This document shows, piece after piece, positions 1-15,000 of a DNA stretch of 64,000 nucleotides. The stretch comes from Escherichia coli. GTDB taxonomy: Bacteria > Pseudomonadota > Gammaproteobacteria > Enterobacterales > Enterobacteriaceae. Positions within the stretch are counted from its first letter, which is position 1. Every line of letters starts with the position of its first letter. The stretch is taken from assembly GCF_016026235.1 (NCBI RefSeq), contig NZ_CP065613.1; one strand, 5' to 3'. The position numbers were made by a program.

Positions 1-3000
1 CAGAACACGGGCCTGATTGATGCGGTTCCCAGCGTAAATATCGGAAAAGCGTTCGAGAAGCCTCAGAAAAAGAACATGCCGAGCATCCGGCCTGATCAAC
101 TGCCTCAACTGATGCAGACGATGCGAACAGCAAACATCAGCCAATCAACACGATGCCTGTTCATGTGGCAGCTTCTTACTATTACCCGTCCTGCCGAAGC
201 CGCTGAAGCTCGATGGGATGAGATCGATTTTGAAGCTAAAGAATGGAAAATTCCTGCAGCTCGAATGAAGATGAACCGGGACCATACGGTTCCATTGTCT
301 GATGGAGCTCTCGCTATTCTGGCAATGATGAAGTCACTCAGTGGTGGCCGAGAATTTATCTTTCCTAGTCGAATCAAACCAACCCAGCCGATGAATAGCC
401 AAACAGTGAATGCAGCACTCAAACGTGCTGGATTGGGAGGCGTTCTCGTTTCTCATGGCTTGCGTTCTATCGCCAGTACCGCCCTTAATGAACAAGGCTT
501 CCCACCTGATGTTATTGAAGCGGCGCTGGCTCATGTGGACAAAAATGAAGTACGTCGCGCTTACAATCGCAGCGATTATCTTGAGCAGAGACGCCCGATG
601 ATGCAGTGGTGGGCAAACCTTATAAAAGCGGCAGATAGTATTCCTACCGTTTGTAACGAAGTAGCAGGTCTTAGATTGGTTGGGTAGTGGATTTAAAATC
701 TCAAGTGATTATCCTTAGAAAAGATAATCACTTGAGATAATTGAAATTTTTATTGGATTAAGGCAAAACCATGCTACATTAATTAAGATAGTTTAAAATA
801 GCATTTATATAGATATATGTTACACTTTCTAAAAAAAATCGCGAAAAAGGAAATATGATAACAATCATATTTTAGAAGTTGACATAATACATACCAAATT
901 TATCGTGCTATGAACACTACATTAACCTTTTATTTTTTCATAACAAGCAAGCAAAAATGATGAATACAATAGAAATTCACCGCAAACAACCAAACATAAC
1001 TCTAGCCCAGCACATACAAAATAAAAGACTACAACTTGGAAAAGAAATCTCCAAAAAATACAAGATTTATCTCGACTTAAGGTTCTGGTTTTTTTTAGAG
1101 ATATTGAGCTTGGGAATAATAACGATCGAGACTTAATTAATCTCCTACAAAAAATAAAGTACTTGGTTGATAATGGAAAGGTAGTTTGCCCTATATCTGC
1201 TACTGTTTTTTTAGAACTAATGAAACAGAACGATATCGAAACAAGGATGGCCACAGCCAAAATTATTGATCATCTGAGTTTTGGAGTTACACTTATAGCT
1301 AGTCATGAGAGAGTCAAACAAGAATTATGTAATGCTACGTATTCGATTTTGGGAGCTAAGGACAGCATTCCAATTGATCAATTAGTATGGACCAAACTAA
1401 GTTATATTTTCGGCGATTACCATCCATACGATACATCTTTCGATGCAGCTGAAGAACTGATCATTCAGAAATCTTTTTTTGATCATATGTGGGATATTTC
1501 ACTCGTTGAAATGATGAACCATATCAACTATGAAAGCTGGGAACAATTTGATTGGCAGAAAACAACAGAAATGCTTAACTTGGCTAATAAAGAGCATACC
1601 AATGAGCTTAGAAGCTATCAACACGCATATCGTATTGAGTTCGACGGAGTGTTAAGCCTTTTCAACGAGCAATTAATCCAGATATTCAAAGAGGCTTACA
1701 AGGCCGGATATAACAATGATGAAATTAATAATAAGAAAAAATCAAAAAATGAAAAACTTAAACAATTTGCACAATTAGTCCGTACTTTACATATTGGTGC
1801 CTCTTGTCATGCTGCAGTAAGATGGGATCAGAAACGCCAGCTCAATGGTAATGATCTTTTAGATTTTCATCATGCCGAAGCAGCTTTAGGATATTGTGAT
1901 TTATTTTTGACTGAAAAACCTTTGAAAGTTCTAGTGAGTCAAGAACATTTGGGATTAAGAGAATTATTCTCATGCTCTGTTGAGTCATCAGCTAGTGAAG
2001 GGCTCAAGATACTTAACATGTGTAAAATATAAAAATTAAGAATATTTCATATTACTAAATCTATAAACTTTAGAGGTCATTTTCATAATTGAAGCTGACC
2101 TCTCACCCGCTCGATAAGTCTCACACAACTATGACTAAGATTGGCAAGTATTATCCCCCCCAATTATCATCTATTACAAAAATAGCTAATCATCTATTTT
2201 AAAATCAAAAATCCTTAAAATATCATTAAATGATGCTTCACATTGCCCCACAAGGCTAGTGAAGTGTGCACGTAGATTTTCATGATCGGTACGCGCTTCT
2301 AATATCGCTTTCTTCTTTTTTTCTGTAGAAGCATGTCCGCGTACTTCGGTTCGTAGAGCATGCAGTTTTTGCATAGGCTGAACTAACATTTTCGCTTCAT
2401 CTACTGTTGCACTTTTAGCAATAAGAGCTTCTTGTAGTATGCGCAAGGATCCCCATTTGGGTTCAATGATTCGGCCCTCATATTTAGCAATTTCACTCAG
2501 TGGCTTTGGTAAAAAGCCCTCAACTAAATACTGATCAAGCGCAAGGATTTCATCACCCCACTCTTTGATTGAATCTGTTGCAGGATACTGAACAGCGCCA
2601 CTCAATACTGTACCCCGTGGCTTCCACCAGGTGGGAGGATTCTTGTCCATTAGCGAAATTTTGTGTTTGAGTGCCAACAATGGTTCATTGGACAGATACC
2701 ATTCCCCAACAATATCCGTCTGAAATGCACGCTTAGAAATTGTTCCTTTTGGCCATTCATTGAAGGCTTGCCAATAGAGCTGTTCTTCATAAGGTAAATG
2801 AGCCAAATCACCAATGTATACATGAACTTGCCCGGCCTCATTAATATCATAGGATTTTAAATACCAAGCATTTCGACAAGCAATACTTCTTTCATCTAAA
2901 GTATATTTTTCTGGATCCGCCTTGAAACGATGTAACACTTCTGCTCTAAAAAAGGCAGGTGAAACTTCCCACGGTAATTTATTTTCTTGAAAATAGTTAG

Positions 3001-12000: not shown

Positions 12001-15000
12001 AATCGATGTTGAGTATGCCATCGCTTTGTGATGACGCGATTCAAGTCGAACGACACCTTCAGTTGAAGAACTCAACGTCCATCCGATAGAGCTGTCTGGA
12101 AATACCTTGGGTGCACGAGACCAGAATTCTGTCAATATCTTGAAGCGCCAAGAAGTCCCCCAGTGAGGGTCTAGCCCAATGAAGTTAGGTGCAATCGCAC
12201 CTTCGACAAGCACACCATGCATGTCTTTGAATGATGCAAACAGGTCTACTGTTCCACGGGAAAATGGGCTGAGCGTCCCCTCTTGAGCATCTGTAAATTT
12301 CCAATAACTTTCTAATTCTTCCAGATCGTTGAGACTATCAAAAATCGTGATGAAATCCGCTAATGGAAACAAACGAGTTGGCTTTGAGGGGAGATTGATG
12401 GAATTAAACGCAGTACCCGCGAGTGTAACGACAATAACGATGTGAAGCTCATCGACGCTAGGTTCTGCACCAACTCTAGATAGAGAAAGGAAACGTCCAT
12501 CATCAAGACGGAAGAAAATCGGCGATCCACGACTCACCTTGGCGTATATGCTTTCCGCTGCGTTTGACAGGCGGTCATTAGATGTATGGTCACATGTGCA
12601 AATGAGATATATCCCAGAATTACCCAGTATAATACAACTGATAGGCAGGTCTTTGCAGGCGGTGCCGTCAACATACAGAGTCAAAGGCCCTATAAGGGTT
12701 CTTTGGAATCGCTCAGCGACAAACTCTGCAAGTTTCCTGTGCGTAGAGGGGCTAATCCCGTTCAGATTTTTGTTAGCCCAATGGTCAATAATGAGACCCG
12801 GTGCACTGCGTACTGACATTGGTATCCATACCCTATCCATCTCGACAGCAAGGAAAGGTAGCGCCATGCCTTGCATCACTGCATTTCCGAACGCATCCGG
12901 TTTCAGCGGTGCTTTGAAAGTGCCAACACGAGTATCGAACGTACACCCTGCTTTCTTTCGGCGGTTCGCTAGCTCATTGCCAAGTTGTTGAAGCAAAGAC
13001 TTGCAAGTCAACCAGAAGTCTTCAGTAGCTAGTTCAACATCAGCACATTGGGCCTCGGTGTTGACAGAGAGCATCAACTCAGGAATCGATTCGATGATCT
13101 GCGCTTGCAGCGCAATGGCAAGATCCATATGGGCTTGTGCTTCTGGAATATGAGCATAGGTAATGCGAAATGCTTCTACGAAGTCAGACATTCTCTCAAT
13201 GCAACTCCCGTAGAACATAGGGACGAAGTCTTGACCAAGCCGTACTTTGATTTGCCCCCAATCAGCCTCGGGGGAAAAATCCTCAAGCATTGGGAATTCA
13301 GGCCATGATGCGTATAATTCTTTTGTAAATACTTTAAAATCTACATAGCTATCAATCGATATACCTACCTGAGACTCAAATGGCAGCTCTAAAAGGACAC
13401 ACCAAGCAAAAATATGCTTTATGGGGCTACCTGTATTGGCTGGCCAGAGTTCGGAAGTAAATAATGCAACTGCTACGTCGAGGGTTTTGTATCGGCGAAA
13501 TAAATTCTGGGTGGCTTCCAGATGCTTACAAAAGTATGTGTCTTCACCTACCCCATTCGTAAACAATTCACGATATCTGGACATATCGTGTATCAAAGAA
13601 TCATAATCAACCTTTTGCTCTGTTAGTTTTCTTTCCCGCTTTTCACGTGACTTCCTACCCACTTCATATCCTCCCTGTATGCATACGTTGACAGTCTATA
13701 CGGTATCGAAGCATAGAAATTATTAATGCGTATCATAATGAATATCTTGAGTCACTTACTGTACCGCCCTCACAAAAGTGCATAGCCTCAAACTATCAAA
13801 CACATCCGACAAATTGTTACATTTATATTATTGCAACCATAAAACCCAATAATTTGATAAATAATAAATTTTTCTTATTTCAACTAGTCACACTTCAGAT
13901 TGGTTTACATAACTTTAGCGCAAATCACTGTTTGCCAATAATCACTTCTTCAAAAGCGGCTTTCACATTTTCATCCTCCGCTATCCGCCCTGATCAGTTA
14001 CCACAGCTAATGCAGACAATGCGAAATGCCAACATTATTTTGCCTACTCGATGCTTGTTCATGTGGCAACTTCTAACTATCTCACGACCCGCAGAAGCGG
14101 CAGAAGCTCGTTGGGATGAGATCGATTTTGAAGCTAAAGAATGGAAAATTCCTGCAGCTCGAATGAAGATGAACCGGGACCATACGGTTCCGCTAGGTTC
14201 GCGAGGCCTGAGCTTGGCGCAGCTATCGCCAGCAGAATCACCGCTGATGCAAGTGGCGCAGGCGCAGTTAAAGCATCTGTTACCCGCACATCTGATGGCT
14301 TCATTTTCGCCGTTTTTTAGTCAAGCGGGACACACTTCCTAGCCACAGCAAACGGGCGCTGAGAGAGTGGGAATGGCCGCAGAAGGTGCGGGTGGTCGCG
14401 GCCAGTCAGCCGCTCCTACCACCGGTGATCCAGGAAGGCATGTTTGACGCGGTCAGTGAAGCGCTTTACCAAGACCCTTGGCTGAACATTGATTACCGCA
14501 ATGCTCAAGATACTCGCCGTCAGGCGGAGGTGATGCCCCTTGGTTTTAGTCCTACAGGGCTCACGTCTGCAAAGCTAATGGGAAGAGTGTGGTACTCACT
14601 CTCTCCCATATAATCTTCCAAACTATGGCGAAACAGGCGTTAGCGGTTTTTTTACTTTGCTCAAAATCCAGGCATCAATCTCGGATTCTAGCCACCCCAC
14701 CGTCTTTGCTCCCAGTTTCACCCTTTGGGGAAATGTCGGATCATGACGATCAGAACTAGGGTCAAGCCAGTCGTATACCATTGAACGCCCAATGCCTAAC
14801 TTCTTGACAAGTGCAGGTACACGAAGGATTTTTACAGACTTTGGTTCCATTAAAGAGCTTCCTCTCTTGGTTTGCTTAGGATGGAAGTCAGACTATCTAC
14901 TGATGCAACTGTGCGACATACGGCTGCAGTACTTCATTTTTTACGGAGCTTAACTGATTGAATAATGGATAATTTTAGTTTTAACGATTTTATCGTTGAT

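What the first reader, a model, noticed from the sequence alone, without database searches (positions are those of the whole stretch)
214..14191. Cargo bracketed by direct repeats of integrase sequence with an 80-bp perfectly identical block
nt 214-293 (inside the IntA-like gene) and nt 14112-14191 (inside a truncated second int fragment) are identical over 80 bp, while the int-like sequence upstream of the block in the second copy (13983-14111) is clearly diverged. An identical core within diverged homologues points to a recombination or gene-conversion junction. The two copies flank the ~13.8 kb cargo in direct orientation, so the cargo could be deleted or exchanged by homologous recombination, or it marks tandem integration of a second island that later decayed.
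Basis: seen in the sequence. Interest (0 to 1): 0.58.

Follow-up and report, generated by a model that had tools for sequence, protein, structure and literature searches.

The report
Integrase relic trading sequence with live integrase
A dead 213-base scrap of a second integrase gene lies 13.9 kb downstream of the working integrase of an E. coli tmRNA-gene island, and the two have swapped short stretches by gene conversion; this is ordinary island decay, not a new mechanism.

Summary
Window 214-293 and 14112-14191 are identical (80/80), inside a 209-nt direct repeat whose other 129 nt are 75% identical.

The locus is a CP4-57-like island at ssrA. The first copy is the live intA-type integrase. 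The second is an internal 213-nt relic (codons 214-284 of 413) of a different ssrA-integrase lineage, whose nearest relatives are in Erwinia and Enterobacter (91%). It is fused directly to an internal, frameshifted fragment of a WYL-regulator gene.

The block is partly plain conservation: 59 of 80 nt are invariant among E. coli intA alleles. It is also a gene-conversion tract. The relic's affinity switches from its own lineage to the resident integrase at the block (Fisher p 5e-4 to 7e-6). In other strains, the only three integrase differences sit directly 5' of the block and carry the relic's bases.

All cargo losses seen in complete genomes are IS-mediated. The predicted repeat-recombination junction occurs only in short-read metagenome contigs, alongside the reciprocal junction, so it may be an assembly artefact.

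The cargo is an uncharacterised NACHT/nuclease (Avs-like) operon. The repeat itself is of low interest.

The parts
1..687 (+). 3' part (codons 186-413) of the live intA-type (P4/CP4-57-like) tyrosine integrase next to ssrA. It contains the HGLRS box and the RAYNRSDY tyrosine region downstream of the block.
   Evidence: Pfam Arm-DNA-bind_3/Phage_int_M/Phage_integrase on the full protein
85..293 (+). Repeat copy 1 (integrase nt 640-848). The 80-nt identical block is 214-293.
201..213 (+). Polymorphic conversion tract. Positions 201, 204 and 213 are C, T, A here and G, A, T (the relic's bases) in strains 162.2, OY757949.1, CE0026a and in L014/L015/L020.
957..2032 (+). Cargo gene 1, hypothetical (289-aa ORF from 1163). 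A possible upstream start at 957 is separated from it by a T8 run.
2186..3883 (-). Cargo gene 2, 565 aa, no family match.
3930..3978 (.). Heptamer tandem repeat (ATAAGTT)7, 47-95 nt upstream of the 565-aa gene start. Copy number is 4, 5, 7 or 9 in otherwise near-identical loci.
4003..5451 (-). Cargo gene 3, 482 aa, no family match. It overlaps the NACHT gene's end.
5448..9875 (-). Cargo gene 4, 1475 aa: N-terminal PD-(D/E)xK-type nuclease, NACHT/STAND NTPase, and a long C-terminal region (Avs-like).
9880..13662 (-). Cargo gene 5, 1260 aa, no Pfam, NCBIfam, PADLOC or PDB match.
13983..14195 (+). int' relic: integrase nt 640-852 (codons 214-284) of a different ssrA-integrase lineage. The identical block is 14112-14191.
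14195..14569 (+). WYL' relic: internal fragment (about codons 76-200 of 330) of a WYL-domain regulator gene, with a 1-nt frameshift, abutting the int' relic.
14623..14850 (-). AlpA-family HTH gene. It is inverted relative to the usual int-hyp-alpA arrangement.
14965..15687 (+). 240-aa hypothetical gene, the divergent partner of alpA in this island family.
15758..16399 (-). Inovirus Gp2/YfjJ-family gene, where the conserved island backbone begins (followed by YfjI and a GTPase).

Best explanation
The window starts inside the integrase of a CP4-57-like genomic island inserted at the tmRNA gene ssrA. Downstream of that live integrase lie five cargo genes, including an Avs-like NACHT/nuclease operon. 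After them comes a small junkyard: a 213-nt internal piece of a second ssrA-type integrase from a different lineage, joined by an illegitimate deletion to an internal, frameshifted piece of a WYL-regulator gene.

These are relics of an earlier island, or island part, at the same site. Successive deletions removed most of it (inferred). The relic and the live integrase lie in direct orientation 13.9 kb apart. They share a naturally well-conserved stretch encoding the segment just after the box I arginine. RecA-type homologous pairing there has produced short non-reciprocal sequence transfers, that is, gene conversion.

One or more such events made 80 nt identical. Their direction is uncertain, although the live integrase is relic-lineage-like at 4 of the 5 sites where it differs from K-12 intA. 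A later event in a sub-lineage copied three more relic bases into the live integrase and extended the identity to 98 nt (shown; all three changes are synonymous). The relic has no function of its own.

Recombination between the copies could in principle delete the cargo. The product would be an integrase truncated at codon 284, without its HxxR and tyrosine catalytic residues. There is no firm evidence that this has happened.
For: Locus identity and gene order: ssrA-intA-cargo-partial integrase-HTH-hyp-Gp2-YfjI-GTPase...CbtA/YeeU; the same order in dozens of contigs.

Relic origin: the upstream 129 nt are 117/129 identical to integrases at ssrA in Erwinia persicina and Enterobacter sp. kpr-6, against 97/129 to the resident integrase.

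WYL fragment: 14195-14569 is 88.5% identical to codons ~76-200 of plasmid WYL genes, with a 1-nt indel.

Mosaic signal.

Block peptide: WDEIDFEAKEWKIPAARMKMNRDHTVPL is found in only one of the 120 best integrase-family cluster representatives, the resident integrase itself.

Population proof of conversion: integrase alleles in L014, L015, L019 and L020, and in complete genomes 162.2, OY757949.1 and CE0026a, carry changes at nt 756, 759 and 768, all to the relic's bases; in L014 and L015 these three are the only differences from the window allele in 1242 nt (CE0026a adds G763T, L020 a 75-nt duplication). The relic is invariant. K-12, TC24 and TW01221 share the window states at 759 and 768. The background is 10 mismatches per 16.9 kb, 4 of them in this 13-nt stretch.

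Real locus: the arrangement is present in 10 complete genomes, so it is not an assembly artefact of the window.
Against: No ssrA/att fragment remains next to the relic, so tandem integration cannot be demonstrated.

No full-length parent of the relic above 92% identity was found, so the relic's block could in part be identical to the resident integrase by descent.

The block is intrinsically conserved: 75/80 with K-12 intA and 69-75/80 with lineage B. Only 5-11 informative sites carry the mosaic signal.

The alpA/hyp module is inverted relative to relatives such as TW01221. The history therefore involves rearrangements I could not reconstruct.
Confidence: 0.75

Rival explanations
1. The 80-nt identity is purely conservation. 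This stretch encodes an invariant part of the integrase, so any two family members look identical there and no recombination is involved.
For: The last 59 nt are invariant among the resident, K-12 and TC24 integrases and the relic. K-12 intA matches the block 75/80. Integrase-family proteins are 87-96% identical across Enterobacterales.
Against: Lineage-B integrases differ from the resident integrase at 5-11 of 80 sites, whereas the relic differs at none. The E-A-K peptide variant is unique to these two copies among 120 cluster representatives. An independent, polymorphic conversion tract adjoins the block.
Confidence: 0.08
2. The repeats really mediate homologous-recombination loss, and duplication or circle formation, of the 13.9-kb defence cargo in natural populations. 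This would give cargo-plus and cargo-minus subpopulations.
For: An exact-sequence look-up of the predicted fusion protein (integrase aa 1-284 plus the WYL' reading frame) finds 5 contigs. Their DNA has precisely the predicted junction, on at least two SNP backgrounds. The reciprocal junction is on 7 contigs. Identity of 80-98 bp exceeds the minimal length for RecA-dependent recombination in E. coli (about 25-30 bp; from established knowledge, not tested here).
Against: All 12 contigs are short-read metagenome or Logan assemblies, some at roughly 4-5x coverage. None comes from the 13 complete genomes or from the 24 longest contigs carrying the neighbouring gene. Both junction types occur in similar numbers, and one 'circle' contig is 13,911 nt, close to the 13,898-nt repeat spacing. 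That is the classic A-R-B plus S-R-S output when an exact repeat is collapsed in a de Bruijn graph. The deletion would also destroy the integrase. Every documented cargo loss is IS-mediated.
Confidence: 0.15
3. The cargo-less form (truncated integrase fused to WYL') is ancestral. The cargo then arrived as a circle carrying int 3'-cargo-intB' and integrated by a single homologous crossover in the block.
For: A Campbell-type crossover does create direct repeats with an identical crossover core and reciprocal chimeras. The cargo-less junction contigs exist.
Against: The incoming circle would have to carry exactly the missing 3' part of the resident integrase, in frame, restoring a perfect 413-codon gene. 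The resident integrase is strictly linked to this cargo in all 13 genomes. The junction contigs are of doubtful reality.
Confidence: 0.02

Closest known systems
CP4-57 cryptic prophage / island of E. coli K-12 at ssrA (intA, yfjH, alpA, yfjI, yfjJ ... yfjP ... yfjX/radC, ypjF-yfjZ toxin-antitoxin)
   Same: Same insertion site (ssrA, between smpB and the ypjA/glaH side). The integrase is 88% identical at the nucleotide level. Backbone gene families are shared: AlpA, YfjI/DUF3987, Gp2/YfjJ, GTPase, DUF932, antirestriction, RadC, CbtA/YeeU.
   Different: Different cargo directly after the integrase (NACHT operon instead of yfjH). The alpA/hyp module is inverted and displaced. A second integrase relic and a WYL relic are present.
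Tandem arrays and decayed remnants of genomic islands at tRNA/tmRNA genes (Islander/TIGER framework, PMC4383910; 'Traffic at the tmRNA gene', Williams 2003, recalled from memory)
   Same: The tmRNA gene is the most enriched island target, and tandem arrays are recorded (125 tandems of at least 2 islands). A second integrase sequence of another ssrA lineage inside the island fits that picture.
   Different: Islander's criterion for a tandem array is that each member has its own integrase and its own tDNA fragment. That is not met here. Only 71 codons of the second integrase survive, and no ssrA fragment remains.
Intragenomic gene conversion between paralogous or pseudogene copies (for example tufA/tufB, rRNA operons, pilS to pilE; general knowledge)
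   Same: Short non-reciprocal tracts, an unchanged donor, clustered substitutions matching the paralogue, and a mosaic phylogenetic signal.
   Different: There is no sign that the transfers are selected or programmed. The three demonstrable changes are synonymous, and the donor is a 213-nt scrap.
Avs / bacterial NLR-like (NACHT) antiviral STAND proteins (cargo only)
   Same: NACHT NTPase (Pfam 5.8e-12), N-terminal PD-(D/E)xK-type nuclease effector hits, large size, and a location in a mobile-element cargo slot.
   Different: Only the NTPase core aligns to Avs1b (E 4e-11, profile positions 209-626 of 1924). Two large co-oriented partners (1260 and 482 aa) have no known family. Defence activity is untested.

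Membership tests
P4/CP4-57-type tyrosine integrase (IntA) - live copy | Arm-binding (DUF4102), SAM-like and catalytic Phage_integrase domains, with the catalytic R...HxxR...Y residues | tested here: met
   Precomputed Pfam PF13356, PF22022 and PF00589 on the 413-aa product. The TRPAE, HGLRS and RAYNRSDY motifs were read in the translation.
P4/CP4-57-type tyrosine integrase (IntA) - live copy | Encoded immediately downstream of its target gene ssrA | tested here: met
   tmRNA gene 204 nt upstream of the integrase start in strain PK8568 and its relatives.
P4/CP4-57-type tyrosine integrase - second copy (13983-14195) | Complete reading frame with catalytic residues | tested here: not met
   Only codons 214-284 are present, flanked by unrelated sequence on the left and a WYL-gene fragment on the right. 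RefSeq flags it as partial at both ends.
Tandem island array at a tDNA (Islander definition) | Each island has its own integrase gene and its own displaced tDNA fragment | tested here: not met
   No copy of the ssrA 3' end or the ssrA-int spacer anywhere in the window (best match 15 nt, E 4.3). The second integrase is a fragment.
Gene conversion between paralogues | Change of phylogenetic affinity along the sequence (mosaic) | tested here: met
   Upstream, 24-25 informative sites side with lineage B and 4-11 with the resident integrase. In the block the counts are 0 and 5-11. Fisher p = 5e-4 to 7e-6.
Gene conversion between paralogues | Clustered polymorphisms in one copy that match the other copy, with the donor unchanged | tested here: met
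   Integrase nt 756, 759 and 768 change to the relic's bases in several strains, and the relic is identical in all loci examined.
Repeat-mediated (RecA) deletion of the intervening cargo | Genomes with the precise int5'-block-WYL' junction and no cargo | tested here: inconclusive
   Absent from complete genomes. Present on 5 short-read metagenome contigs, with 7 reciprocal-junction contigs alongside, which is compatible with an assembly artefact.
Avs / antiviral STAND (cargo protein 5448-9875) | STAND/NACHT NTPase core | tested here: met
   Pfam NACHT at 5.8e-12, residues 271-443.
Avs / antiviral STAND (cargo protein 5448-9875) | Full-length similarity to a defined Avs type, including its sensor domain | tested here: not met
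   The Avs1b profile matches only positions 209-626 of 1924, at E 4.4e-11. No PDB relative by sequence.
Avs / antiviral STAND (cargo protein 5448-9875) | Protection against phage | not testable with these tools
   Needs plaque assays.

The most novel reading that the evidence does not exclude
The integrase relic is not inert. Its 80-98-bp identity with the live integrase lets RecA recurrently delete or duplicate the 13.9-kb NACHT defence cargo. The deletion and reciprocal junction contigs in metagenomes would then be real, and the population would be heterogeneous for a costly immune module. The heptamer VNTR upstream of one cargo gene would add phase variation on top.
Probability: 0.1. Interest if true: 0.5.

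Novelty: new member of a known kind. Interest (0 to 1): 0.25.

Why it matters
This locus is a clean, datable example of how islands at the tmRNA gene decay. It also shows that a leftover pseudogene scrap can still rewrite a live integrase by gene conversion. That is useful as a caution for integrase phylogenies and for island-boundary callers, but it is not a new principle.

There is a practical point as well. An exact 80-bp repeat of this kind yields 'deletion' and 'circle' contigs in short-read metagenome assemblies, and these could be mistaken for excision events.

The part most worth following up is the cargo: an uncharacterised three-gene NACHT/nuclease operon, with a variable heptamer repeat nearby.

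Tried and rejected
1. Remnant att site. I searched for a copy of the ssrA 3' end or the ssrA-int spacer next to the relic, to prove tandem integration. Nothing was found.

2. Intact parent of the relic. E. coli complete genomes hold none; every other intA matches the relic at only 81-83%. One scan of GTDB representative genomes found three lineage-B integrases at 89-92%, but no exact parent.

3. Origin of the flanks in lineage-B islands. tblastx of window 13600-20000 against L006-L010 gave only the integrase, AlpA, the 240-aa gene and the GTPase, and no WYL' counterpart.

4. Inversion model. I considered that the direct repeat arose by inversion between integrase copies. I rejected this because recombination between inverted repeats keeps them inverted. 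Inverting the whole 688-15687 segment would restore the usual int-hyp-alpA order, but I found no sequence support at the proposed ends.

5. Cargo-free strains with the same integrase. There are none: all 13 complete genomes with this integrase carry at least the first cargo genes.

6. Family searches for the four non-NACHT cargo proteins. PADLOC and NCBIfam were run on all four, Pfam on three (not the 289-aa one) and PDB only on the 1260-aa one; there were no hits.

7. Literature search by protein accession. No hits.

8. Haplotype test for the deletion contigs. I tried to separate real deletion from artefact by looking up the 240-aa neighbour of contig L022. That protein is the common allele, so the test was uninformative.
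Full report
**1. Observation**

- The repeat finder finds one long direct repeat in the first 20 kb: 85-293 against 13983-14191, 209 nt at 85% identity.
- The last 80 nt of each copy (214-293 and 14112-14191) are identical. A search of the whole window with up to three mismatches returns only these two sites, with none expected by chance.
- The 129 nt upstream of the block are 97/129 (75%) identical.

**2. The locus**

The first 16 kb match ten complete E. coli genomes over their full length at 99.5-99.8%. 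In strain PK8568 the gene order is:
- smpB, ssrA (tmRNA) and intA (413 codons; the window starts at codon 186);
- five cargo genes;
- a feature RefSeq calls a tyrosine recombinase 'missing N-terminus and C-terminus';
- an AlpA-type HTH gene, a 240-aa gene, then Gp2/YfjJ-family, YfjI-family and GTPase genes, continuing to DUF932, antirestriction, RadC and CbtA/YeeU.

This is a CP4-57-like island at the tmRNA gene. K-12 intA is 88% identical to this integrase at the nucleotide level.

**3. The second copy is a relic of a different integrase lineage**

It corresponds to integrase nt 640-852, that is codons 214-284. Its upstream 129 nt are only about 75% identical to the resident integrase and to K-12-type intA.

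A pattern drawn from that part found integrases next to ssrA in Erwinia persicina, in Enterobacter sp. kpr-6 and in an Enterobacteriaceae MAG. Protein look-ups added two metagenome contigs; of these five loci, ARAGORN found the tmRNA gene in three (L007, L008, L009). These 'lineage B' genes match the relic's upstream part at 104-117 of 129 positions, up to 91%.

Immediately to the right, 14195-14569 is 88.5% identical to an internal part (about codons 76-200 of 330) of WYL-domain regulator genes known from Enterobacter, Citrobacter and Raoultella plasmids. It carries a 1-nt indel that breaks the frame. The int'/WYL' junction lies within 14192-14195. The last four bases, GCTA, resemble other integrases (ACTA) more than the resident one (ATTG), so the identical block is probably bounded by mismatches on both sides.

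Two internal gene fragments therefore sit side by side in the same orientation. That is what several illegitimate deletions would leave of a former island or island part. A related contig, L006, has int, cargo, a 240-aa gene, AlpA, a GTPase and a WYL gene in one island, so both relics could come from a single element. No copy of the ssrA 3' end survives. Tandem integration is thus inferred, not shown. The Islander criterion for a tandem array, which requires each island to have its own integrase and its own tDNA fragment (PMC4383910), is not met.

**4. Why 80 nt are identical**

Part of the answer is ordinary conservation.
- K-12 and TC24 intA match the block at 75/80.
- The last 59 nt are identical in all four E. 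coli sequences compared.
- Lineage-B genes match the block at 69-75/80.

Conservation alone is not enough, for three reasons.
- Against each lineage-B comparator, the relic sides with lineage B at 22-25 informative sites upstream (against 4-11 siding with the resident integrase). In the block it sides with the resident integrase at all 5-11 informative sites. Fisher p ranges from 5e-4 to 7e-6, and the switch is specific to the resident integrase rather than to K-12-type intA.
- The block peptide, with its E-A-K variant, occurs in only one of the 120 best cluster representatives of the integrase family, and that one is the resident integrase itself.
- The population shows conversion directly. 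In L014 and L015 and in the complete genomes 162.2 and OY757949.1, the integrase differs from the window allele at just three positions in 1242: nt 756, 759 and 768 (window 201, 204, 213). CE0026a and L020 carry the same three changes, plus a private G763T in CE0026a and the 75-nt duplication in L020. These lie directly 5' of the block, and all three carry the relic's base. The relic itself is invariant in every locus read. K-12, TC24 and TW01221 share the window states at 759 and 768, so the window allele is ancestral. Between PK8568 and CE0026a there are 10 mismatches in 16.9 kb, and 4 of them fall in this 13-nt stretch.

This is a gene-conversion tract with the relic as donor and the live integrase as recipient. 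It lengthens the identity to 98 nt. All three changes are synonymous.

For the original 80 nt the direction is not settled. However, the resident integrase carries the lineage-B state at 4 of the 5 sites where it differs from K-12 intA, which suggests the same direction.

**5. Can the repeats delete or exchange the cargo?**

In complete genomes the answer is no so far.
- Of 5,426 E. coli genomes, 13 carry this integrase, and all 13 have at least the first cargo genes.
- The relic and its right flank occur only in 11 of these.
- The three genomes that have lost cargo did so through IS elements: IS600 in FDAARGOS_943 (which also clipped the relic) and IS1 in two Res13 strains.
- Only these 11 of the 667 genomes with an intA-like gene have a second integrase copy, so this is a one-off and not a recurrent design.

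I then predicted the recombination product: integrase codons 1-284 running into the WYL' frame, 332 aa. An exact-sequence look-up found it on five contigs. Their DNA has exactly the predicted junction.

As a control I looked up the reciprocal junction: the 1260-aa gene, then intB'/block/int 3', then the first cargo gene. It is on seven contigs.

All twelve contigs are short-read metagenome or Logan assemblies, some at 4-5x coverage. One 'circle' contig is 13,911 nt long, essentially the 13,898-nt repeat spacing. None comes from an isolate genome, and the 24 longest contigs carrying the neighbouring 240-aa gene all bear the cargo.

An exact repeat longer than the assembler's k collapses into a single node, and the paths A-R-B and S-R-S are then legitimate graph walks. 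These contigs are therefore what an artefact would look like. Real deletion plus duplication is not excluded. I rate it at about 0.15, and only the raw reads can decide.

A real deletion would leave an integrase without its HxxR and tyrosine residues. The repeat is thus not a plausible 'exchange device'.

**6. The cargo**

The 1475-aa protein has an N-terminal PD-(D/E)xK-type nuclease region (PADLOC effector and LmuA-type hits, 1e-5 to 3e-8), a NACHT NTPase (Pfam 5.8e-12) and a long unassigned C-terminal part. Only the NTPase core aligns to Avs1b.

It overlaps a 482-aa gene and follows a 1260-aa gene. Neither of those, nor the 565-aa and 289-aa genes, matches any PADLOC or NCBIfam family. Pfam, run on all but the 289-aa protein, also gave nothing. 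By sequence, neither the 1260-aa nor the NACHT protein has a PDB relative, and no paper in the library cites their accessions.

A relative island in strain TW01221 carries a helicase and a Qat system between alpA and the Gp2 gene. This island family therefore holds defence cargo, though in a different slot in that strain. The alpA/240-aa pair is inverted here relative to TW01221, and I could not reconstruct how that happened.

**7. Verdict**

The gene-conversion reading is right, and it is now backed by population data. The decayed-second-island reading is the best account of the relic's origin. The cargo-deletion idea remains unproven.

None of this departs from known island biology. It is a new, well-documented instance of a known kind. 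Interest is low for the repeat and moderate for the uncharacterised cargo.

Noticed in passing
window 3930-3978: Perfect heptamer tandem repeat (ATAAGTT)n, 47-95 nt upstream of the start codon of the 565-aa cargo gene (minus strand). Copy number is 4, 5, 7 or 9 among loci that are otherwise about 99.9% identical. It is a candidate phase-variation or promoter-spacing switch.
   Followed up: partly
window 4003-13662 (minus strand): Three overlapping or abutting genes: 1260 aa, a 1475-aa nuclease-NACHT protein, and 482 aa. Only the NACHT core matches anything known. The 1260-aa protein ends with a D...ECK motif that looks PD-(D/E)xK-like by eye. This is a possible new multi-gene STAND defence system.
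   Followed up: partly
L020 10001-11317 (GCA_003686705.1), equivalent to window ~205-290: An integrase allele (438 aa, protein P0031) has an in-frame 75-nt tandem duplication of the block region, on the converted (G/A/T) background. It may be a slipped or aberrant recombination product, or an assembly error.
   Followed up: partly
window ~16428: The window lacks about 0.6 kb that is present between the Gp2-family and YfjI-family genes in PK8568, L021 and TW01221. The YfjI-family ORF is 412 aa here instead of 485 aa, so its C-terminus is deleted.
   Followed up: no
window 14623-15687 vs L011 (TW01221) 3627-4708: The AlpA gene and its divergent 240-aa partner are inverted and displaced to the far side of the cargo, compared with the usual int-hyp(-)-alpA(+) order in K-12, TC24, TW01221 and L006.
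   Followed up: partly
window 957-1163: The first cargo gene may start at the ATG at 957. A run of eight T (about 1090-1097) separates a 59-aa ORF from the 289-aa ORF. Annotations of this gene vary between 261, 270 and 289 aa across strains, which suggests a frameshift or a homopolymer-length effect.
   Followed up: no
L002 (FDAARGOS_943), L003 (Res13 strains), L031: The cargo is repeatedly hit by insertion sequences. IS600 replaces the NACHT and 1260-aa genes and clips the relic. An IS1-associated deletion runs from the 565-aa gene to kbp. IS21 sits inside the 1260-aa gene. IS1 copies lie near the integrase in two further genomes.
   Followed up: partly
window 560-687 (integrase 3' end): Identity between this integrase and K-12 intA falls from 91-97% in the 5' half to 57-78% in the last ~120 nt. 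The boundary of the variable cargo region therefore lies inside the integrase 3' end.
   Followed up: no
window 31088-31163: A single tRNA gene with a CAT anticodon on the minus strand, in an AT-rich stretch (33-38% GC at 29-34 kb). The equivalent gene in TW01221 is annotated tRNA-Ile.
   Followed up: no
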